A stretch of DNA of 64,000 bases, taken from IMG/VR virus record IMGVR_UViG_2778261087_000003, one strand, 5' to 3'. The notes beneath the pieces were generated by a model. It was given only the letters and a program-made list of their open reading frames with translations. It was not told where the DNA came from and ran no database searches. Position 1 is the stretch's first letter. The number at the start of each line of letters is the position of its first letter. This document shows positions 1-44,207 of this stretch, piece by piece. This DNA comes from a virus (lineage: Duplodnaviria > Heunggongvirae > Uroviricota > Caudoviricetes). Both the position numbers and the translations under genes were made by a program.

Positions 1-598
1 TCTTCAGCAGAAAAAGCCGCACCATTGCATTTCAGCCAGCCTGTTGGCGGAGTGGCTGAAGGCCACGGAACAGGCACGCCAACGGGTAATGCCGAACCTT
101 CTCCCAAACCAAGGTTTTTGACAAACAGCGCAGGCTCAGGAATATCTGCGCCGTTCTGGTCTTTAGCCAGCTTTTCCGCCAGCTTGTTCAGTACCGTAGT
201 CGCAAAGTTTGGATCATTACCGAGAGCGTCAGCCAGCTCTTTAAGCGTATCCAGTGTCTCAGGGGCGCTGCCTGCAAGTGCCGCAAGTGCTTTGGCCACA
301 AACTCCGTCGTCGCCAGCTTTTTGCTGTTATCACCATTTGCAGGTGTAGGTGCTGTTGGTGTGCCGGTGAATGTCGGACTGGCTTTCGTCGCGTACTGGG
401 TATGCGGGTCAACTGCCGCGATATGTGCAGCCAGGTCTGTTCCGCTTTTTTCGACCTTCTGTTTGAGGTATGACGTTCGGCTGGCCAGTTGTTTAGCCTG
501 GCGGTTAGAAATTCCGTCAGGTCCGCCCAGAACGGGGTCAGAGACCTCAATCTGGTAGATGCCGTCTTCCCACTGCGGGGTTTCGGGTAGATTTGCCA
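1..598 (-). CDS. Tail fibre protein, 5' portion only (gene runs off the left edge)
   Basis: Minus-strand ATG at 598-596 gives MANLPETPQWEDGIYQIEVSDPVLGGPDG...; further in it reads ...GLGEGSALPVGVPVPWPSATPPTGWLKCNGAAF, the same motif as the host-range region of the tail fibre at 40061-41959. Plus-strand ORF 25-558 is its antisense. Confidence 0.8.
98..123. other. gix/cix-like recombination crossover site inside the tail-fibre gene
   Basis: TTCTCCCAAACC-AA-GGTTTTTGACAAA: two half sites ending AAACC / GGTTT around a 2-bp AA core (111-112), the pattern of Gin/Cin/Hin sites; lies exactly where the constant and variable fibre parts join. Confidence 0.55.
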
Positions 599-601
599 TA
601 A

Positions 602-1180
602 TTAACTGCTCCCGTGGTTGTAACTACCGTCATAACGGGTAGTACTGTTGTATCGAATGGCGACAGACTGATATTCCAGACTTGCCAGATGACAGCGAGC
701 CGGAGCAAAGGCAGCAAGCGTCTGACGTAACAGCGCCGCCTGATCGTTAGTGATGGGTTGTTGAAGGATGACGCGATAGACTGCCCAGGCTTGTGCATCA
801 CCATGGACGAAAAGCCCGTTGTACGTGTGTCTGCCGTCATAGCCAATCTGCCCCGTACCTTCAATCAGATCCACTTCGCCGAAGCCAAAACGGCGGATAA
901 TTTCCCGGATTGACCACGGTGTTCCTTTATAGCGGTGTAGCTCGATAGCGGATTTGATAAGCATGCGGCGTACATCGTCCGATTCCGCCAGTTCCCAGCC
1001 ATCGCCGAACAGCGAGAACTGCTCGCCAAGCCATGGCAGCGCGGAACTGTCGACAATATCGACGAGACCGACCATCAGTACGCTCAGGTCGATGTTATCC
1101 AGCCGTCCGGCCAGTCTTCCCAGCGTTCTGAGACTGATATCACCCTCAAGCGGTGGCGGGAGTTGTAGCACCTCAGCCAT
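602..1180 (-). CDS. Baseplate/tail protein (P2 gpI-like, Mu gp48-like)
   Basis: 192 aa, immediately upstream of tail fibre and downstream of J-like gene; position and size typical of gpI. Confidence 0.55.
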   Translation of the reverse strand: MAEVLQLPPPLEGDISLRTLGRLAGRLDNIDLSVLMVGLVDIVDSSALPWLGEQFSLFGDGWELAESDDVRRMLIKSAIELHRYKGTPWSIREIIRRFGFGEVDLIEGTGQIGYDGRHTYNGLFVHGDAQAWAVYRVILQQPITNDQAALLRQTLAAFAPARCHLASLEYQSVAIRYNSTTRYDGSYNHGSS

Positions 1181-23029: not shown

Positions 23030-23133
23030 ATCGCCCCACAGGAATGCGCTGTGAGCCGACCAAGGTTCAGTCAGTCTCGCGAGACCTGACCAGACTGCCA
23101 TATTTTTTAATAATTGTAAAAGGCTTACAGATT

Positions 23134-23898
23134 ATGAAAATGCAGACATTACCCATCGTGCCGTGGATTGGTGGCAAACGTCGCCTTGCAAAACACATTC
23201 TGCCGCTGTTTCCGGCGCATGAATGTTATGTGGAGCCGTTTTGTGGGGCAGCAGCGCTCTATTTTCTTAAGACACCTGGTAAGCTCGAAGTCATTAACGA
23301 TATCAATGGTGAACTGGTGAATCTGTACCGGGTGGTAAAGCATCACCTGGAAGAATTTGTCCGCCAGTTCAAATGGGCGCTGGTCAGCCGTCAGATCTAC
23401 AAATGGCTGCAGATCACCCCGGAAGAAACACTGACGGATATCCAGCGTGCAGCACGGTTCTACTACCTTCAGAAGCAGGCGTTTGGCGGCAAGGTGGCAG
23501 AGCACAGCTTCGGTACCTCCACCACATCCCCGCCACGCTTCAACTTGCTGCGTATTGAAGAAGAACTGTCAGCGGCACACCTGCGACTTTCCAGAACAGT
23601 CATAGAACACATGGACTGGCAACAGTGCATTGAGCGTTATGACCGCCCGCACACGCTGTTCTACTGCGACCCGCCGTATCTGGGTACGGAAGGCTATGGT
23701 GTGGATTTTCCTGAAGGGAACTACTCGCGGCTGGCAGAGCTGGCCCGGTGCATCAGAGGAAAAATGATAATTTCGGTGAACGACATCCCGCAGATGCGCG
23801 AGGTGTTCACTGGACTGAACATACAGACAGTGAATATCAACTACAGTCTGGCGGGCAAATCAACGCCGCGCCGTGAGCTGGTGATTTGCAATTTTTAA
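23134..23898 (+). CDS. dam: DNA adenine methyltransferase, Dam family
   Basis: ...PWIGGKRRLAKHILPLFP..., EPFCGAAA (SAM motif), YCDPPYLG (DPPY catalytic motif); start set at MKMQTLPIVPW. Confidence 0.85.
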   Translation: MKMQTLPIVPWIGGKRRLAKHILPLFPAHECYVEPFCGAAALYFLKTPGKLEVINDINGELVNLYRVVKHHLEEFVRQFKWALVSRQIYKWLQITPEETLTDIQRAARFYYLQKQAFGGKVAEHSFGTSTTSPPRFNLLRIEEELSAAHLRLSRTVIEHMDWQQCIERYDRPHTLFYCDPPYLGTEGYGVDFPEGNYSRLAELARCIRGKMIISVNDIPQMREVFTGLNIQTVNINYSLAGKSTPRRELVICNF

Positions 23899-33677: not shown

Positions 33678-33752
<75 letters not shown>

Positions 33753-33893
33753 TCTCGTGTAGTTCAGGAGGGCATTGCTCAACAGGAACAGCAGGCCAAA
33801 TCAACTACACCAAAGGGTAAAAAACGACGCAGGAAGGCTATACCAGAGGATATAAAGGCACAACGGACCGAAGCAGCCGAACACGCTCGCGAA

Positions 33894-36800
33894 ATGTTCG
33901 ATCAAAAAGGCGGTGCGCAAAAAAGCCAAAACCAACGCGATGCGCGTGGTCGTTTTATTGGAAAGTCAGGGAGTAAGGCCGCAGCGGAAGATGCCCGTGC
34001 TGAACGTGCTGAAAAGGCCAGGCGCAAAGAGGATGATGAGCGTCTAAATGCTGAATCAGGTTTATTAAAAAAACTGTCAAAAGTAGCTGAAGGCATAGGT
34101 AACCCTTCAGAGACTCGTGCCGTCGATGCGTTAGGTTATGCCGTTGCTGGTCCATTGTGGGCAGCAGGGAAGGAGCTTGGCGGGATATCAAAAGAAGTTG
34201 GTGGATCGCTTAATGGTGCCAGAAAGTCTATTGCCGATGTGATTCGTGGCAATGACGATAACAGCCGTAGAAAAGGTTTTTTTAGGCGTAAATCGCAAAA
34301 TAGTGCCGATGTCGTTCAGGTTAACACCCAAAAACGGACGGTTCAGGAACTTCAGGAGCAGACCAGCGAAATTAAAGAGGGCAATGACAAGATTCTCAGC
34401 GCCCTTGATCAGATAGCCAAAAACACCGGGAAAAAGAAGGGCGGCTTGCTGTCCAAACTATTTAGCCTGTTAGGGAAGGGGGCCGGTGGCGTCGCGTCGT
34501 TGTTAATGGGGCGTGGCATGCTGAAAAAAGCTGGAGCACTCGCTTTTGGCGCTCTGGGGGCAAAGAAACTTGTAGGAATGCTACGCGGTGGTGGCAAGAA
34601 GACTCTCGCCCATGAAGGCGGAGATTTGGCTGCCCGGGCAGCAGGTAAACTTGGATTAAAGGCAGTTGGTAAAGGGGCGTTACGCGCAATTCCCCTGGTC
34701 GGCACAGTGGCTGGAGGTATTTATGATGCGGTAACCGGTTGGAATGATACAGAAGCGCAACGTCGAGCGTTTGGGCTTAAATCAGGACAAGATCCATCAT
34801 TCCAGCAAAAAGCCGCTTATACGTTAGCTAATGTTCTTGATATGGGGGGACTGGTATCTGGTATTAGCAGCGCCATTGGTGAGGTTCTCAAATCACTTGG
34901 ATTTGAGGATATCGGCAATATGTTGCAATCATTTTCGACGGAAAGTATTGCCCAGGCCATTGATAGTGGGATTACCAACTTAGAAACATATATTTCTAAC
35001 CTTGGCGACACCATTTCTACCAAGTTCGATGATTACACAGCAAAGATTGGTGATGCTGTTTCAGCATGGTTTAGCGATACATCTAATAAGCTGCTTGAAA
35101 AGCTGGATGCCATCAAAGACTTCTTTACTGTCGATAACCTGAAACAGGTTTTCAGTGATGCAATTGATAGTGCAATTGATTTCATTAAGAACCCAGGGAA
35201 ACACATTAAAGAGGCGGCTGGTAATATTTGGGATGGGGTTAAAAATTTACCTGGTAAAGCATTAGATGCAGCGGTTGATGCCGTTAAAAATACCCCTGCG
35301 GCAATGATTGTATCAAAAATACCCAATCCGATCGGCGAGGCTAATGCGAAAGAAATCACTCCAGAGTTAAAAGCTCCGGTTAATAGCCACCAGGAGACAT
35401 CTGATTCTAAAACTGAATCCGATGCCAAACAGACTAATATTGTTACCCGCGTGATAAATGCGGCACTGGACACGGCGAAAGATAGCAATAAAACAGTTAA
35501 AGAAACTGCTAATCAGATTATCAATGCAAATGCCGTAGAAACGGGCAATAGCGCGTTGCAGAAAATTGATAAAGCTATTGGTCAAAATAGCTCGTCATCA
35601 TCGTCGCTTAATACCACTGGCACCAGGAATGACATTCAGAAAGCTGCGGATACCTACAACAATGGCCGCTTGGATGTAAAAGTCGGAAGTCTTGGCGCTG
35701 AAGGTAAGGCAAATCTCGATAAGTTGGCTCCGTATTTTGCTGAACTAGAGAATAAATATGGCCTTCCTGAAGGTACTCTTTACGCGATCGCTGCAACTGA
35801 ATCTGGTGGTGATCCTAACGCAAAATCTACGCTTACAAGATCACCAAATGGAAAGCTAAGTGGTGGCGCTCTCGGAATGTTCCAGTTTACGAGCGTTGCT
35901 CGTGAGGAAACTGGATTATCCCGGGAAGATTCTTTTAATCCGGAAAAATCGGCAGAAGCTGCGGCTCTTCTCATGAGCAAGTATCTGAAGCAAGCCAATG
36001 GAGACTTAAACGAGGCCATCACTGCATATAACGCTGGGTTTGGCACTATCAATAAGTGGAAAAAAGGCACAGGTGACTTATCGAAAGAAAACCGTGAGTA
36101 CGCGATCAAGGTCAATACTCATCGTGCTCGCTATTTAGGTGGTGAAATCTATACACCTGGAGCAGGAGCACAGGGTGGGGCGCAATATGGAGTGAGGGGA
36201 CCACTGCCTGATAACGCTGTTATCGATCAGTCTACTGGCTTGGCGTTTACCCTTGGTGATAGCCCGTTTGAGAAAGGCGGTCTGGTAGACAAAATCGGCA
36301 ATGCTGTTGGCGTTAACGATCTGGTCAACAAATTCATGAATGGCCGGGGTATGCGTCGGGAAGTCGTTCAGGGAACGCTCGAAGAACGTGCACGAGGGAA
36401 GGGGACCGCAACAGCAGCTGGCAATGTGTATGTTGATACCCCGATGCCAGTTGAAGAGGCGCGTCCGGTGGCCAACAACTCAAGTTACTTTGACCAGCTC
36501 GGCGCACAAATGGGGATTGATGGACTATTCGATAAACTCCTCAACTCGCCGGGGATGCGGAAAAATAATGCGCCTGAACCAGCCTCCACGTCCCAGGTGA
36601 CGACTGCCGCCAACGATTTGCAGCAACCAACCGGTCGTATGCAGATAGACGGACAGGTTATTAGTGACCTTGGCGGCTCCGGTGCCAAGCCGACAATGCA
36701 GTTGGCTGATAATACCGTTTCACTTGATGGTGAAACGAAGCGGCTGTTTGCGCAGATGACCTCATTGCTTGCCAGGATTGAAGAGCACACCAAAGACTCG

Positions 36801-40060: not shown

Positions 40061-41959
40061 ATGAATGACGTTACAGTTGTTACATCAGTTACTTACCCAT
40101 CACCCGAGTCGTTGGCTCTGGTGGCTGATGTGCAATACCACGAACCATATCTGTCAGCCGCGCTAAACCGAAAATTCAGGGGGATTGTTGACCCGGGATT
40201 TTATGCCGGTTTCTTACCTAAGCCTGGCGGTGGGATGAACCTGTTAATCACCTCAGTGGATGGTGATAAAACCGCAGGCGCGGCGTCGGTGGATATTGGT
40301 GAATTCTACCAGGTAACTATTCAGCACCGTCAGGATATTTCTCTTGCACTTAGTGCAGGCAAGAAATATGCAATTGTGCTGAAGGGAAGATACCTCCTTG
40401 GAGAGGATACCTATCAGGTTAATACCGCGTCACATATTCATGCGGCTGAATTTGTTACCCGAACCTATACCGATTCATATCAGTTAGGAGATGGGGAGCT
40501 GCTTGTTTGTACGGTGAATATCCCTGCTGGCGTATCAGCCATTACCCAGGAGATGATTGATACATCCGAGCGTATTAACCGCACGATCGGCATTGATATT
40601 TCAGACTCTGTAACCAGTAGCAGAAGTGATGTTGCTGCAAGTTCGCTGGCAGTTAAAAAAGCCTACGATCTGGCGAAAAGCAAGTATACGGCGCAGGATG
40701 CAAGCACAACGCAAAAGGGATTAGTTCAGCTCAGTAGCGCAACTAACAGCGACAGCGAAACAATGGCGGCTACCCCTAAAGCCGTTAAGTCTATAAAAGA
40801 TCTGGCTGATACCAAAGCGCCAATAGAAAGCCCGAGTCTGACAGGAACGCCAACCGCGCCGACGGCAGCGCAAGGTACAAACAGCACGCAGATCGCAAAT
40901 ACAGCCTTTGTTAAGGCAGCTATAACTGCACTTATCAACGGTGCGCCTGGCACACTGGATACGCTGAAAGAAATAGCGGCTGCGATCAATAACGACCCGA
41001 ATTACAGCACAACTATCAACAATGCCTTGGCTCTCAAAGCGCCTTTGGCAAGCCCTGCATTAACGGGTGTCCCTACTGCGCCTACGGCTGCACAGGGCAC
41101 AAACAATACGCAGATCGCTACGACTGCTTACGTACGGGCTGCTATCTCTGCATTGGTCGGATCATCACCTGAAGCTCTTGATACCCTGAATGAGCTTGCA
41201 GCAGCACTGGGCAATGACCCGAACTTTGCGACAACAATGACAAATGCGCTGGCAGGGAAACAGCCACTTGATGCAACTTTAACCGCGCTTGCTGGTCTTG
41301 CGACAGGCGCAAATAAATTGCCGTACTTTACCGGTACAGACACTGTTTCTCAGACTGACTTAACGTCAGTCGGTCGCGATATTCTGGCCAAAACAAGCGT
41401 TCTTGCTGTTATCCAATACCTTGGTTTAGGGGAAGGCTCTGCTTTGCCGGTTGGAGTCCCCATTCCGTGGCCGTCAGCAACGCCACCAACAGGGTGGCTC
41501 AAATGTAATGGGGCTGCGTTTACCGCCTCCCAGTACCCTAAGTTGGCACTGGCTTATCCGGCGCTCAGACTGCCTGATCTACGCGGGGAGTTTATCCGGG
41601 GATGGGATGATGGGCGTGGGGTTGATAGTGGTCGTCAGTTGTTCAGTCTGCAGGGTGAAGATTTCAAAGCCCACCGACATGAGTCCTATTTTTATGCAGG
41701 AATATCACGTAATGAAATACCTCTGACAAGCCTGCTGAGTTCCGATGAAATGCTGACGTTAAGCTCGACGACTAACTCACTATCACCTATGGATATTGAT
41801 GCAAACGGTACCCTTCTCGGTAATGACGATTATAACTGCGTTCAGGAGGGTAACAAAAACAACAAGCGGACTGCGACCGGGTTGAGTACCAATATTATAG
41901 GTGGTTCAGAGACGCGTCCGCGCAACGTTGCATTTAACTATATTGTGAGGGCTGCATAA
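40061..41959 (+). CDS. S: Tail fibre protein S (constant part plus currently expressed variable part)
   Basis: MNDVTVVTSVTYPSPESLALVADVQYHEPYLSAAL...; repeated ...TQIANTAFVKAAI... units; C-terminus ...RPRNVAFNYIVRAA; AAGGA RBS. Confidence 0.85.
   Translation: MNDVTVVTSVTYPSPESLALVADVQYHEPYLSAALNRKFRGIVDPGFYAGFLPKPGGGMNLLITSVDGDKTAGAASVDIGEFYQVTIQHRQDISLALSAGKKYAIVLKGRYLLGEDTYQVNTASHIHAAEFVTRTYTDSYQLGDGELLVCTVNIPAGVSAITQEMIDTSERINRTIGIDISDSVTSSRSDVAASSLAVKKAYDLAKSKYTAQDASTTQKGLVQLSSATNSDSETMAATPKAVKSIKDLADTKAPIESPSLTGTPTAPTAAQGTNSTQIANTAFVKAAITALINGAPGTLDTLKEIAAAINNDPNYSTTINNALALKAPLASPALTGVPTAPTAAQGTNNTQIATTAYVRAAISALVGSSPEALDTLNELAAALGNDPNFATTMTNALAGKQPLDATLTALAGLATGANKLPYFTGTDTVSQTDLTSVGRDILAKTSVLAVIQYLGLGEGSALPVGVPIPWPSATPPTGWLKCNGAAFTASQYPKLALAYPALRLPDLRGEFIRGWDDGRGVDSGRQLFSLQGEDFKAHRHESYFYAGISRNEIPLTSLLSSDEMLTLSSTTNSLSPMDIDANGTLLGNDDYNCVQEGNKNNKRTATGLSTNIIGGSETRPRNVAFNYIVRAA
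41410..41435. other. cix crossover site (left)
   Basis: ...CCAATACC-TT-GGTTTAGGGGAA, 2-bp core TT at 41421-41422, inside S. Confidence 0.55.
41419..41625. repeat. Left inverted repeat of the invertible segment (about 207 bp)
   Basis: Near-identical to reverse complement of 43439-43645, read directly from both strands. Confidence 0.8.
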
Positions 41960-42567
41960 TGGTCAAAGCCGAATTAAATCAGGACATGATCGCCACGGTG
42001 GCCGGTGAAATCCCCGTCTACAACTACGATGGCGAGACGCGCGAATATCTGTCTTCATCCGTTGAGTACCTTGCCGTAGGGGTTGGCATCCCGGCTAATT
42101 CCTGCATTGATGCTCCAGGCGAAAGTAAAACCGGCTTCGCTATTTGCCGGACGGCTGATTTTGCCGCATGGGAATACGTTGTCGATCATCGTGGTGAGTC
42201 GGTCTACAGTACCGTAACTGGTGAGGTAGTTGTCGTTTCTTTACTTGGTGATTACCCAACAGAAACCACACCGCTGGCACCTGCTACGCCATACGATACG
42301 TGGAGTGGTGGCGAGTGGGTGACGGATACCGCCGCGCAGCACGCGGCAAAAGTGGAGGCAGCAGAACAGCAAAAATCAGCGTTACTGATTGAGGCGCAGG
42401 CAATGATCAGTCTATGGCAGACAGAACTACAATTAAGCATTATCAGTGATAAAGATAAGGCCAGCCTGATACTCTGGCTGACCTACATAAAGGAATTGCA
42501 GGCGGTCGTTCCTGACGCTGCACCAGGTATCAAATGGCCTACGCCTCCGGTTGAACAGGCCAGTTAA
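41959..42567 (+). CDS. U: Tail fibre assembly protein U
   Basis: 202 aa, MVKAELNQDMIATVAGEIPVYNYDGETREYL... Confidence 0.8.
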   Translation: MVKAELNQDMIATVAGEIPVYNYDGETREYLSSSVEYLAVGVGIPANSCIDAPGESKTGFAICRTADFAAWEYVVDHRGESVYSTVTGEVVVVSLLGDYPTETTPLAPATPYDTWSGGEWVTDTAAQHAAKVEAAEQQKSALLIEAQAMISLWQTELQLSIISDKDKASLILWLTYIKELQAVVPDAAPGIKWPTPPVEQAS

Positions 42568-43138
42568 TATCAGGAGCCGTCGAAACATCGACGGCTTTAA
42601 CCGCCGTTTTATAAGCCATCCATGACGATAATTTCTTTTTGTTTTCTTCGCTGATATCACCGAGCATCAGCTCCACTCGCCAGTCGGAGGATAGTTCATC
42701 TACCTGAGCGAGGAGCATTTGTCGGTGTTGTTCTGCATCAGCAATATCACCTTGATGTTTTGCGTCAGAATCCGTGACCCATTTCTCTCCGTCCCATTTA
42801 TCATACGGTGATGCAGGGGCATTTGGCGTTGTACCTTCGGGATAATCCCCCAGTGTAGTCACGTCGACTTGTTGCATTGTCTCTGTGCTATAAACGGTTT
42901 GACCTCTGTGGTCGGTGACATATTCCCAGGATGAAAGGTCTGCTGTACGGCAAATAGCAAATCCCTCCTTTTTTTCACCCGGAGCATCAACGCAGGAATT
43001 AGCCGGGATGCCAACCCCTACGGCAAGGTACTCAACGGATGAAGACAGATATTCGCGCGTCTCGCCATCGTAGTTGTAGACGGGGATTTCACCGGCCACC
43101 GTGGCGATCATGTCCTGATTTAATTCGGCTTTGACCAT
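42539..43138 (-). CDS. U': Alternative tail fibre assembly protein U'
   Basis: 199 aa, same first 40 residues as U then divergent; convergent with U. Confidence 0.8.
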   Translation of the reverse strand: MVKAELNQDMIATVAGEIPVYNYDGETREYLSSSVEYLAVGVGIPANSCVDAPGEKKEGFAICRTADLSSWEYVTDHRGQTVYSTETMQQVDVTTLGDYPEGTTPNAPASPYDKWDGEKWVTDSDAKHQGDIADAEQHRQMLLAQVDELSSDWRVELMLGDISEENKKKLSSWMAYKTAVKAVDVSTAPDINWPVQPEA

Positions 43139-43620
43139 TATGCAGCCCTCACGATGTAGTTAAATACGACGTTGCGTGGACGAGTTTCACCTTTCATTGA
43201 TGAGGCATCATTGATGTTCTCCGCACCATTTTTGCCGCCAGACATATAGGTGAATGTCCTACCTCCATTAGCCCAATAGTCACATCCGTATTGAGCTGCA
43301 GGAGAAAAAATAGTTTCATTTGCTATCGCCTGCTCTACACCTGGAGGGATAGCAGTTGGAGTATTAACCGTCGTAGGAATCGCGTGATTGTGGGATATGA
43401 CGGTATGCTCCTGGCTTGACAGTAATTCCCTTCCTGCATCGACCCCGCGTCCATCATCCCATCCCCGGATAAACTCCCCGCGTAGATCAGGCAGTCTGAG
43501 CGCCGGATAAGCCAGTGCCAACTTAGGGTACTGGGAGGCGGTAAACGCAGCCCCATTACATTTGAGCCACCCTGTTGGTGGCGTTGCTGACGGCCACGGA
43601 ATGGGGACTCCAACCGGCAA
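43138..43620 (-). CDS. Alternative tail fibre variable segment Sv' (expressed only after inversion; no own promoter)
   Basis: First 60 residues identical to the variable start of S (PVGVPIPWPSATPPTGWLKCNGAAFTASQYPKLALAYPALRLPDLRGEFIRGWDDGRGVD) then divergent; ends ...RPRNVVFNYIVRAA. Confidence 0.8.
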   Translation of the reverse strand: MPVGVPIPWPSATPPTGWLKCNGAAFTASQYPKLALAYPALRLPDLRGEFIRGWDDGRGVDAGRELLSSQEHTVISHNHAIPTTVNTPTAIPPGVEQAIANETIFSPAAQYGCDYWANGGRTFTYMSGGKNGAENINDASSMKGETRPRNVVFNYIVRAA

Positions 43621-43645
43621 AGCAGAGCCTTCCCCTAAACCAAGG
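43439..43645. repeat. Right inverted repeat of the invertible segment
   Basis: Reverse complement matches 41419-41625 with a few inner-end mismatches. Confidence 0.8.
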
Positions 43646-43655
43646 TTTAGGATTG
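43630..43655. other. cix crossover site (right)
   Basis: TCCCCTAAACC-AA-GGTTTAGGATTG, palindromic half sites around AA core at 43642-43643; overlaps cin 3' end. Confidence 0.55.
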
Positions 43656-44207
43656 AAATGATGACGCCGGAAACTTCTTATAAAGCGTGGAAACAGCCAC
43701 ATCATAGATGATTGCAACCTGCTTACGGGGGATGCCCTTCTCCAGCAATCGCCGCATTTGCTGCCATGTTTCTTCCTGGTATTTAGGCCGACGCCCACCT
43801 ATACGACCTTCTGCGCGAGCTACATCAAGTCCAGCGCGTGTACGTTCAACGATAAGCTCACGTTCCATTTCTGCCAGCGCCCCCATTACGTGAAAGAAAA
43901 AGCGCCCCATTGGTGTACTGGTGTCGATGGAGTCAGTGAGACTCCGGAAATTAATGCCTCTGTCACGCAGCTCTTCCACCAGCACAACTAAGTGACGCAT
44001 GCTGCGCCCAAGACGGTCTAACTTCCATACGACCAGGGTATCACCTCTGGAAAGCATACGGAGTACCTTTTTTAACCCAGGGCGCTCAGCCTTTTTGCCG
44101 CTCGCCTTGTCCTCAAAAATTAGCTCACATCCTGCGCTTTCAAGAGCGTTTCGTTGTAAAGCAGTGTTTTGTTCATTTGTTGATACGCGTACATAGCCTA
44201 TTAGCAT
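43647..44207 (-). CDS. cin: Serine DNA invertase (Cin/Gin/Hin family)
   Basis: 186 aa; MLIGYVRVSTNEQNTALQRNALESAGCELIFEDKASG... with catalytic Ser in VRVST; adjacent to invertible segment. Confidence 0.9.
   Translation of the reverse strand: MLIGYVRVSTNEQNTALQRNALESAGCELIFEDKASGKKAERPGLKKVLRMLSRGDTLVVWKLDRLGRSMRHLVVLVEELRDRGINFRSLTDSIDTSTPMGRFFFHVMGALAEMERELIVERTRAGLDVARAEGRIGGRRPKYQEETWQQMRRLLEKGIPRKQVAIIYDVAVSTLYKKFPASSFQS

What the first reader, a model, noticed from the sequence alone, without database searches (positions are those of the whole stretch)
1..123. The window begins inside a second invertible host-range segment
The minus-strand tail fibre gene of the Mu-like phage contains a Gin/Cin-type crossover site (CCCAAACC-AA-GGTTTTTG) at 98-123, exactly where its sequence becomes the shared PVGVPVPWPSATPPTGWLKCNGAAF variable-region start. 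Positions 1-110 are therefore probably part of a G-like invertible segment whose recombinase lies left of the window. Cin at 43647-44207 recognises very similar sites and could act on both.
Basis: partly seen in the sequence, partly recalled or inferred. Interest (0 to 1): 0.5.

Follow-up and report, generated by a model that had tools for sequence, protein, structure and literature searches.

The report
Invertible tail-fibre switch, Pin type
The window starts inside a flip-flop DNA segment that lets a Mu-like prophage alternate between two tail-fibre tips; its partner site and its own invertase gene lie at the far end of the same circular 130-kb phage-plasmid contig, so this is a correct call of a textbook system.

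Summary
Confirmed. A 26-bp imperfect-dyad crossover site, TTCTCCCAAACC-AA-GGTTTTTGACAA, lies at 99-124 inside the minus-strand tail-fibre gene (ATG at 599). It matches the e14 pix sites in 23 of 26 positions.

The window is positions 1-64000 of NCBI contig NNXF01000006.1 (130,020 bp), so nothing lies "left of the window" in the record. The contig is a P1-like phage-plasmid carrying a transposable Mu-like prophage in its sit gene (6-bp target duplication). It was linearised inside the invertible segment.

- Tfa and Tfa' assembly genes, and an alternative gp53-like fibre tip;
- an inverted partner site (128605-128630) with the same AA core;
- an intact 190-aa serine invertase (82% identical to e14 Pin, 72% to Gin, 73% to the window's Cin).

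About 338 bp of the fibre tip is missing from the assembly. Flipping gives an in-frame 281-aa alternative fibre. More than 55 such full-length fibres, and both segment orientations, occur in related prophages.

The system is Pin/P-segment-like rather than G-like. Action by Cin is plausible but unnecessary and untested. This is an ordinary new member of a known kind. Side interest: two inversion systems share one replicon, and a fibre cassette was recently swapped with a P2-like phage.

The parts
1..98 (-). First 98 nt of the variable fibre part (Sv, Collar-domain tip). It encodes ...GSALPVGVPVPWPSATPPTGWLKCNGAAFSAE and lies inside the invertible segment. The gene continues across an assembly gap of about 338 nt to the contig's far end.
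   Evidence: Translation; Pfam Collar match to residues 174-198. Window 1-115 is 100% identical to the Sv of a P2-like phage, L014. The last 28 nt of the contig encode the matching C-terminus FNFIVRAA*.
99..124 (+). Crossover site TTCTCCCAAACC-AA-GGTTTTTGACAA. The inner half-site is 99-110, the core dinucleotide 111-112 and the outer half-site 113-124.
   Evidence: Unique in the window. Matches 23/26 to both e14 pix sites, 19/26 to Mu gix and 19-21/26 to the window's cix sites. The inverted partner TTCTCCCAAACCAACGTTTTCGTCTT is at contig 128605-128630 on the minus strand.
113..599 (-). Constant fibre part (Sc, residues 1 to about 163) outside the segment. It is joined in frame to whichever variable part faces it.
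   Evidence: Translation. Window 96-33752 is 99.985% identical to the prophage of E. coli 97.3. The simulated flip gives an in-frame 281-aa Sc+Sv' fibre.
602..1180 (-). Tail protein I (P2 gpI / Mu gp48-like), the gene just upstream of the fibre. It marks the end of the baseplate module.
   Evidence: ORF list; annotation of the identical protein WP_000852584.1 in relatives.
33748..33758 (.). Right end of the transposable prophage (...AATCA, up to 33752), followed by the 6-bp target duplication TCTCGT (33753-33758) in the P1-like sit gene.
   Evidence: Identity to 97.3 stops at 33752 and identity to the P1-like plasmid starts at 33753. The same TCTCGT precedes the left end at contig 127894-127899.
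41409..41434 (-). cix site of the P1-like C segment (S side), TTCCCCTAAACC-AA-GGTATTGGATAA. It is inverted relative to the site at 99-124.
   Evidence: Site scan; sequence.
43630..43655 (+). cix site next to cin, TTCCCCTAAACC-AA-GGTTTAGGATTG. It has the same orientation as the site at 99-124.
   Evidence: Site scan; sequence.
43647..44207 (-). cin: an intact 186-aa serine invertase of the P1-like element. It is a possible trans-acting second enzyme.
   Evidence: ORF. It is 73% identical to the recombinase of the L001 relative, which differs from the source's own recombinase by one residue. It is 74% identical to Gin and 82% to Pin.

Best explanation
The window's first 110 bases are one edge of a Pin/Gin/Cin-type invertible host-range segment of about 1.85 kb. 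The segment belongs to a transposable, BcepMu-organised Mu-like prophage that sits inside a P1-like phage-plasmid.

The fibre gene has a constant 5' part (Sc, window 599 to 113) outside the segment. Inside the segment are two opposed cassettes. One is a Collar-domain tip (Sv) with its assembly chaperone Tfa. The other is a gp53-like tip (Sv') with its chaperone Tfa'.

A 190-aa small serine recombinase is encoded just beyond the far site. It is inferred to bind the two inverted 26-bp sites, cut at the shared AA core and rotate the strands. That would flip the segment so that Sc is fused in frame to the other tip and the matching chaperone becomes co-oriented. Phage particles from a lysogen population would then carry one of two receptor specificities.

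Shown here: both sites, their inverted orientation and identical core, the intact recombinase, both in-frame fusions, and both orientations in related genomes. Inferred: that the segment flips in this strain, that Fis and an enhancer are needed, and that the two tips bind different receptors.
For: - Site at 99-124, unique and dyad-symmetric.
- The window is contig NNXF01000006.1 positions 1-64000.
- The far end of the same contig holds Tfa 129390-129992(-), Tfa' 128978-129418(+), Sv' 128676-128975(+), the partner site 128605-128630(-), an intact recombinase 127978-128550(-) with Resolvase and HTH_7 domains, then the prophage end and the 5' piece of sit.
- A 6-bp target duplication at both prophage junctions shows that the two contig ends belong to one inserted prophage on one circle.
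- The sizes add up. 130,020 bp plus a gap of about 338 bp equals a P1-like backbone of about 94.1 kb (the reference plasmid is 94,179 bp) plus a prophage of about 36.2 kb.
- The recombinase of relative L001 matches solved Gin structures at E = 4.5e-91. It differs from the source's recombinase by one residue.
- The simulated flip gives an in-frame 281-aa fibre. More than 55 full-length 281-aa fibres, 86-99% identical to it, exist in public assemblies, in the flipped gene order.
- All 11 loci of this Mu-like prophage family inspected in complete records (L001, L002, L004-L011) have sites plus a recombinase gene, which is frameshifted in 97.3. Nine have two sites and two have 5-6 sites.
- L010 and L011 carry the segment reverse-complemented, at 95-97% identity, relative to the others.
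- A P2-like phage with the identical cassette is also seen in both orientations (L027 and L028).
- Published work shows the e14 P segment and a 'Mu prophage' locus of EPEC flipping in culture (PMC4272514).
Against: - No reads were available, so flipping in this strain is not shown. The assembly shows one orientation only.
- About 338 nt of Sv are missing between the contig ends, so the integrity of that tip rests on the identical flanks in L014.
- The recombinational enhancer could not be verified. One conserved Fis-like 15-mer was found, and coding constraint could explain it.
- The nearly identical prophage in strain 97.3 has a frameshifted recombinase, so inactive copies exist in the lineage.
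Confidence: 0.87

Rival explanations
1. Relic site. The crossover sequence is a fossil carried along with a horizontally acquired fibre tip, as in fibre genes that have no invertible segment, and nothing inverts here.
For: Window 1-120 or 1-129, including most or all of the site, matches at 90-96% the side-tail-fibre or H genes of HK97, HK106, pro483, 500465-1 and a P2 isolate. From general knowledge these genes are not flanked by an invertase. The site alone is therefore not proof.
Against: The same replicon carries the inverted partner with an identical inner half and core, the opposed second cassette and an intact invertase 55 nt from the partner site. Both orientations occur in relatives.
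Confidence: 0.03
2. Assembly artefact. The first 115 bases (and the last 1,039 bases) of the contig belong to a co-resident P2-like prophage and were joined to the Mu-like prophage by the assembler.
For: Window 1-115 and contig 128982-130020 are 100% identical to P2-like phage L014/L028, found in a sibling assembly. The contig breaks inside this block.
Against: The sequence shared between the two phage types at the window end is only 20 nt (96-115), too short to mislead a k-mer assembler at usual k. The two ends carry complementary parts of one cassette in the expected order and orientation. The total length fits plasmid plus prophage. The P2-like fibre (536 aa) was not found in the source assembly.
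Confidence: 0.05
3. The segment is complete but silent in this strain. It is frozen in one orientation, for example because the enhancer or Fis input is missing or invertase expression is low. Alternatively it is flipped mainly by the plasmid's Cin rather than by its own enzyme.
For: Only one orientation is assembled. Invertases of this family act in trans on each other's segments: PinQ on the e14 P segment, Fin on the H segment, PinE on H and G (PMC12529663). Cin is intact, and cix shares the AA core and 10/12 of the inner half-site.
Against: The segment's own invertase is intact and one residue from a protein found on at least 1000 contigs. The partner site's 'AACGTTT' variant is the same as in the e14 site next to pinE, and the e14 segment flips in K-12 (PMC4272514).
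Confidence: 0.1

Closest known systems
P segment / PinE of the e14 element of E. coli K-12
   Same: - The site is 23/26 identical to both pix sites. The inner half-site is 12/12 and the core is AA.
- The recombinase is 82% identical.
- The segment size matches: about 1.85 kb against 1.8 kb.
- The layout is the same: tail protein I, then Sc, [Sv Tfa | Tfa' Sv'], then the invertase.
- Tfa is 87% identical to TfaE, and window 1-124 is 92% identical to the start of stfE.
   Different: e14 is a defective lambdoid remnant. Here the module closes the tail operon of an apparently complete transposable myovirus prophage. The second tip is a gp53-like domain unrelated to StfP (15/63 identical).
G segment / Gin of phage Mu
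   Same: Same logic and the same position at the end of the late operon of a transposable phage: Sc outside, S/U and S'/U' inside, and the invertase beyond the far site. The recombinase is 72% identical, and the near-identical L001 copy matches solved Gin structures at E = 4.5e-91.
   Different: - The gix core is GA, not AA, and the site identity is 19/26.
- G is 3 kb.
- The fibre parts are not alike beyond the crossover region.
- The prophage has BcepMu-type gene order, with early genes opposed to late genes, not Mu order.
- No com or mom genes follow the invertase: about 80 nt separate its stop codon from the prophage end.
C segment / Cin of phage P1 (a copy is in the same window, 41409-44207)
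   Same: Same AA core and 10/12 of the inner half-site. The crossover falls in the same codon frame (CTT of ...LGLGEG), and the start of the variable part is shared (78% nucleotide identity). The recombinases are 73% identical.
   Different: The constant fibre part and the tips differ. In this copy the segment between the two cix sites is about 2.2 kb. Cin's site overlaps the cin stop codon, whereas the Mu-like partner site lies 55 nt from its invertase gene.
Min system of plasmid p15B and P2-like prophage 'shufflons' (multiple inversion)
   Same: Relatives L005 and L006 of this same prophage family have 5-6 sites and several tip cassettes, served by the same recombinase protein. PMC4272514 describes a three-repeat version in an EPEC P2-like prophage.
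   Different: Only two sites were found in the sequence held for the source. The 338-nt gap is too small for further cassettes.

Membership tests
Din family (Gin/Cin/Pin/Hin) DNA-inversion system | Small serine recombinase of about 190 aa, with an N-terminal resolvase catalytic domain carrying the active-site serine and a C-terminal HTH | tested here: met
   The source gene at contig 127978-128550(-) is an intact 190-aa ORF beginning MQIGYIRVSTNDQ, with Pfam Resolvase and HTH_7 domains. The L001 relative, one residue different, matches the solved Gin structures 4m6f/3uj3 at E = 4.5e-91 over residues 1-185. Identity is 82% to Pin, 72% to Gin and 73% to Cin.
Din family (Gin/Cin/Pin/Hin) DNA-inversion system | Two 26-bp imperfect-dyad crossover sites in inverted orientation with an identical 2-bp core | tested here: met
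   Window 99-124(+) and contig 128605-128630(-). The inner halves are 12/12 identical and both cores are AA.
Din family (Gin/Cin/Pin/Hin) DNA-inversion system | The segment carries two opposed sets of fibre C-terminus plus assembly gene. The constant N-terminal part and the promoter lie outside, and both fusions are in frame. | tested here: met
   Gene order on the contig ends. The Sc+Sv frame is continuous as far as it is sequenced. The simulated flip gives an in-frame 281-aa Sc+Sv' fibre.
Din family (Gin/Cin/Pin/Hin) DNA-inversion system | Both orientations occur (the segment really inverts) | tested here: inconclusive
   Met for the family. L010 and L011 are flipped relative to L001, L002, L004 and L007-L009; L027 and L028 differ in orientation; more than 55 flipped-state fibres exist in public assemblies. 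Not testable for this isolate, because no reads are available.
Din family (Gin/Cin/Pin/Hin) DNA-inversion system | Fis-dependent recombinational enhancer in cis (inside the 5' part of the invertase gene in Hin and Gin) | tested here: inconclusive
   A 15-mer fitting GNNYRNNWNNYRNNC is conserved at nt 71-85 of gin, cin, pin, the source gene and the P2-like invertase gene. Coding constraint could explain this, and no second site at a conserved spacing was seen.
Mu G segment proper | gix sites (core GA) and S/U, S'/U' genes homologous to those of Mu | tested here: not met
   The core is AA and the site matches gix at 19/26. Outside the invertase gene, only about 65 nt around the crossover align with Mu.
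Transposable (Mu/BcepMu-like) phage | DDE transposase plus MuB-like ATPase, Gam, GemA and Mor; TG...CA ends; short target duplication at varied insertion sites | tested here: met
   Pfam hits. The ends are TGAT...ATCA with a 6-bp duplication TCTCGT. Relatives sit at different host sites: next to proY, next to ppiD, next to napB, next to rcsC, in agaD, in an arylamine N-acetyltransferase gene and in a carbamate kinase gene.
Cross-action of Cin on the Mu-like sites | Cin binds and recombines the two sites | not testable with these tools
   Only sequence similarity is available (same core, 10/12 of the inner half-site), plus published cross-complementation within the family (PMC12529663 and the references it cites).

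The most novel reading that the evidence does not exclude
The crossover sites may act not only as flip points but also as docking points for exchanging fibre cassettes between different co-resident phages.

The Tfa'-Tfa-Sv block of this Mu-like prophage is 100% identical to that of a P2-like phage. One boundary falls within 96-115, which spans the core dinucleotide. In addition, the Mu-like site and the P1-like cix sites lie on one replicon with the same core and the same reading frame. A single invertase-mediated 41-kb inversion between 99-124 and 41409-41434 would therefore create two chimeric, in-frame fibres.

If invertases, rather than homologous recombination, drive such swaps, this contig would be a natural substrate in which to catch them.
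Probability: 0.15. Interest if true: 0.55.

Novelty: new member of a known kind. Interest (0 to 1): 0.27.

Why it matters
In itself it matters little. Invertible host-range segments served by Gin/Cin/Pin/Hin-type invertases have been textbook material since the 1980s, and the recombinase here is a common, already annotated protein.

The practical value is threefold.
- It explains why the contig, and several related draft contigs, end inside this locus.
- It shows that the fibre gene is split across the two ends of a circular record and should be annotated as one gene.
- It documents a 130-kb phage-plasmid that carries two compatible inversion systems and a phage within a phage. With read data, this is a convenient natural test case for cross-talk between invertases and for cassette exchange between unrelated phages.

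Tried and rejected
- **Junction searches.** Exact searches for the prophage/plasmid junction, the Sc-Sv junction and the Sv start found nothing in the species-representative genomes, IMG/VR or JGI metagenomes. The one exception was the Sv start in a P2-like viral contig.
- **Annotated collections.** No record in the E. coli, plasmid or phage collections spans either junction or holds window 1-130 exactly. The best match was 97.7%.
- **Reaching the contig's far end through a neighbouring P1 gene.** This failed. The protein is on more than 16,000 blocks and only the longest contigs were read. A rarer neighbour, WP_114071653.1, is not in the source. The route that worked was the Tfa protein of the P2-like phage, which is on only 5 contigs.
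- **Predicted full-length fibre.** The predicted 321-aa Sc+Sv fibre is not in the protein collection. This is expected if the only assembly that has this combination splits the gene.
- **Co-resident P2-like prophage.** I looked for one in the source assembly to explain the contig break. Its 536-aa fibre is not there, so the cause of the break remains open.
- **Fis-site scan.** The scan of the invertase genes was not decisive.
- **Rejected readings.** I rejected the relic-site reading and the G-segment-proper reading. See the rival explanations and the membership test.

Full report
**1. Observation**

The minus strand of window 1-599 is an open frame starting at ATG 599 (MANLPETPQWEDG...). It runs off the left edge after 199 codons. 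Its last 25 residues match the Pfam phage tail Collar domain.

Inside it, at 99-124, lies TTCTCCCAAACC-AA-GGTTTTTGACAA.
- The 26-mer is unique in the window at up to three mismatches, with none expected in shuffles.
- The core 12-mer AAACCNNGGTTT occurs only here and at the P1-like cix site next to cin, 2 found against 0.06 expected.
- The two half-sites are 9/12 symmetric.
- The crossover dinucleotide falls in the CTT codon of ...KNLGLGEG.
- The peptide that follows (SALPVGVPVPWPSATPPTGWLKCNGAAF) is the one that starts both variable fibre parts of the P1-like C segment at 41435-41521 and 43543-43629.

**2. Where the window comes from**

An exact-protein look-up of the truncated sit product placed the window on NCBI assembly GCA_002486955.1, contig NNXF01000006.1 (130,020 bp), with identical coordinates. 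The returned locus equals window 23894-46914 base for base. The window therefore begins at base 1 of a contig, and there is no sequence to its left in the record.

Window 96-33752 is 99.985% identical (5 mismatches) to a prophage in the chromosome of E. coli O68:H12 strain 97.3. That prophage has an rve transposase, a MuB-like ATPase, Gam, GemA and Mor on one strand, and head, tail and baseplate genes on the other. This is BcepMu-type organisation.

From 33753 onward the window is a P1-like IncY plasmid, 100% identical to Salmonella pSA20030575.2 over the stretch compared (window 33753-35500). The breakpoint lies 261 nt into the plasmid's sit gene.

**3. The other end of the contig**

Window 1-115 is 100% identical to a P2-like viral contig, L014. 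That phage's Tfa protein occurs on only five contigs, and one of them is the far end of NNXF01000006.1 (L029).

In contig orientation the far end reads as follows:

| Feature | Contig coordinates |
|---|---|
| P1 genes, then the first 87 codons of sit | ORF 127633-127902(+), reads into the prophage end |
| Target duplication TCTCGT | 127894-127899 |
| Prophage left end (TGATGCG...) | from 127900 |
| Intact 190-aa recombinase | 127978-128550(-) |
| Partner site TTCTCCCAAACCAACGTTTTCGTCTT | 128605-128630(-) |
| gp53-like fibre tip Sv' | 128676-128975(+) |
| Tfa' | 128978-129418(+) |
| Tfa | 129390-129992(-) |
| Last 28 nt, encoding FNFIVRAA* (C-terminus of Sv) | to 130020 |

The same TCTCGT follows the prophage's right end at window 33753-33758, and the uninterrupted plasmid has it once. 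This is a genuine transposition, and both contig ends belong to one prophage on one circle.

By comparison with L014, 114 codons (about 338 nt) of Sv are missing between base 130020 and base 1. A total of 130,020 + 338 fits a P1-like backbone of about 94.1 kb plus a prophage of about 36.2 kb.

**4. Anatomy and mechanism**

The two sites are inverted. They have identical inner halves (12/12) facing the segment and the same AA core. The segment between the cores is about 1,850 nt.

As assembled, Sc is joined to the Collar-type tip, for a predicted fibre of 321 aa, with Tfa downstream. A simulated inversion joins Sc in frame to the gp53-like tip, giving a 281-aa fibre with Tfa' downstream.

The recombinase differs by one residue from WP_023892613.1. 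It carries the Resolvase and HTH_7 domains. It is 82% identical to e14 PinE, 72% to Mu Gin and 73% to the Cin in this window. The L001 copy, one residue different, matches the solved Gin structures at E = 4.5e-91.

The inferred mechanism is the established one for this family. Invertase dimers bind the two sites, pair, make a 2-bp staggered cut at the core, and rotate and reseal the strands, helped by Fis bound at an enhancer in cis. The enhancer could not be verified. One Fis-like 15-mer is conserved at nt 71-85 of all five invertase genes compared, but the coding sequence alone could account for that.

**5. Evidence that such segments flip**

- All eleven loci of this Mu-like prophage family inspected in complete records (L001, L002, L004-L011) have a recombinase gene at the prophage end, next to sites in inverted orientation. 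Nine have two sites, and L005 and L006 have 5-6. The gene is frameshifted in 97.3.
- In L010 and L011 the segment is the reverse complement (95-97% identity) of that in L001, L002 and L007.
- A junction built by flipping L001 in silico is found contiguous in three genomes.
- The predicted 281-aa flipped fibre has more than 55 full-length counterparts, 86-99% identical, in E. coli, Salmonella, Klebsiella and Citrobacter assemblies.
- The best of these sits in the flipped gene order behind the same baseplate genes.
- The P2-like phage with the identical cassette is also seen in both orientations (L027 and L028).
- Published read-level work found the e14 segment and a 'Mu prophage' locus of EPEC E2348/69 flipping in ordinary cultures (PMC4272514).
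- Flipping in this isolate itself cannot be tested without reads.

**6. Comparison with known systems**

Reference sites were read from the records themselves.

| System | Site sequence | Match to window site |
|---|---|---|
| e14 pix, stfP side | TTCTCCCAAACCAAGGTTTTCGAGAG | 23/26 |
| e14 pix, pinE side | TTCTCCCAAACCAACGTTTATGAAAA | 23/26 |
| Mu gix | TTCCTGTAAACCGAGGTTTTGGATAA | 19/26, core GA |
| Window cix sites | (see parts) | 19-21/26, core AA |

Tfa is 87% identical to e14 TfaE, and window 1-124 is 92% identical to the start of stfE. The module is therefore a Pin/P-segment relative placed where Mu has its G segment. It is not a G segment in the strict sense.

Relatives L005 and L006 show a multiple-inversion version with 5-6 sites, comparable to the Min system of p15B and the EPEC 'shufflon' (PMC4272514).

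**7. The Cin idea**

Cin at 43647-44207 is intact. Its sites share the AA core and 10/12 of the inner half-site, and the crossover is in the same codon frame. Cross-action among these enzymes is documented: PinQ on the e14 segment, Fin on the H segment, PinE on H and G (PMC12529663).

Cin acting on the Mu-like sites is therefore plausible, but the prophage has its own intact enzyme.

The site at 99-124 is inverted relative to cix 41409-41434. An inversion of the 41 kb between them would give two in-frame chimeric fibres. It would also separate the prophage's left end from the rest. This is a possibility only; nothing here shows it happens.

**8. Mosaicism**

Compared with the 97.3 prophage, the source is nearly identical from the prophage's left end to about contig 129,090, and again from window 96 onward.

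The block from contig 128,982 to 130,020, plus window 1-115, is 100% identical to the P2-like phage. One exchange point therefore lies within window 96-115, at the crossover site. The other lies in about 110 nt of shared sequence at the 5' end of Tfa'.

Homologous recombination explains the second point and may explain the first. An invertase-mediated event at the first cannot be excluded.

**9. Rivals**

- **Relic site.** Fibre genes of HK97, HK106, pro483 and a P2 isolate contain near-copies of window 1-120 including the site, so a site alone proves nothing. Here the partner, the second cassette and the invertase are all present.
- **Mis-join by the assembler.** This is unlikely, because only 20 nt are shared at the junction and both ends fit one cassette. 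The P2-like fibre was not found in the source assembly.
- **A complete but silent segment.** This remains possible.

**10. Verdict**

The system is an ordinary new member of the Pin/Gin/Cin/Hin inversion systems. The unusual points are contextual:
- a transposable phage inserted in the sit gene of a P1-like phage-plasmid;
- two compatible inversion systems on one 130-kb circle;
- a very recent cassette swap with a P2-like phage;
- a contig that opens inside the segment.

Noticed in passing
window 33748-33758; contig NNXF01000006.1 127894-127906: A Mu-like transposable prophage of about 36.2 kb (ends TGAT...ATCA) is inserted 261 nt into the sit gene of a P1-like IncY phage-plasmid, with a 6-bp target duplication TCTCGT. 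The P1-like element probably cannot make normal tails, though its plasmid functions look untouched. No record in the three annotated collections has this junction.
   Followed up: yes
contig 128982-130020 plus window 1-115, compared with L014 6219-8233 and L003: The Tfa'-Tfa-Sv block is 100% identical to a P2-like phage found in a sibling assembly (GCA_002486995.1). The rest of the prophage is 99.985% identical to strain 97.3. The exchange points lie at the crossover site (window 96-115) and at the 5' end of Tfa'.
   Followed up: partly
L005 1355-4622; L006 890-4622: Two relatives of the same prophage family carry 5 and 6 crossover sites and several short fibre-tip cassettes. Shared cassettes lie in different orders and orientations, with the same recombinase protein. 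This is a multiple-inversion (Min/shufflon-like) form of the module.
   Followed up: partly
L002 6554-7127 (E. coli 97.3): The recombinase of the almost identical prophage in strain 97.3 is annotated as frameshifted, whereas the source copy is intact. This is either a sequencing error or a lineage in which the segment is frozen.
   Followed up: no
L033 and L034 (contig ends); window position 1: Draft contigs of related prophages also end inside the invertible segment. Repeated fibre cassettes, or mixed orientations, seem to break short-read assemblies here as a rule. The cause in the source assembly was not established.
   Followed up: partly
L010 (NZ_CP132021.1) and L011 (NZ_CP132022.1): A 40.5-kb record labelled as a plasmid of strain JCH8249 contains the Mu-like prophage. 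Its flanking host genes (yahJ, carbamate kinase) are the same as those in the chromosome of another strain deposited under the next accession number. It looks like a prophage plus its flanks circularised in assembly, or a record mix-up.
   Followed up: no
nt 71-85 of the invertase genes (window 44123-44137 in cin; contig 128466-128480 in the source gene): A 15-mer fitting the Fis consensus (G[CT]GCAGGATG[TC]GA[AG]C) is conserved in gin, cin, pinE, the source invertase gene and the P2-like invertase gene. It may be part of the recombinational enhancer or may simply reflect coding conservation.
   Followed up: partly
window 23044-23898: The prophage carries a D12-class N6-adenine DNA methyltransferase gene between the lysis genes and the early region, on the early-gene strand.
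   Followed up: no
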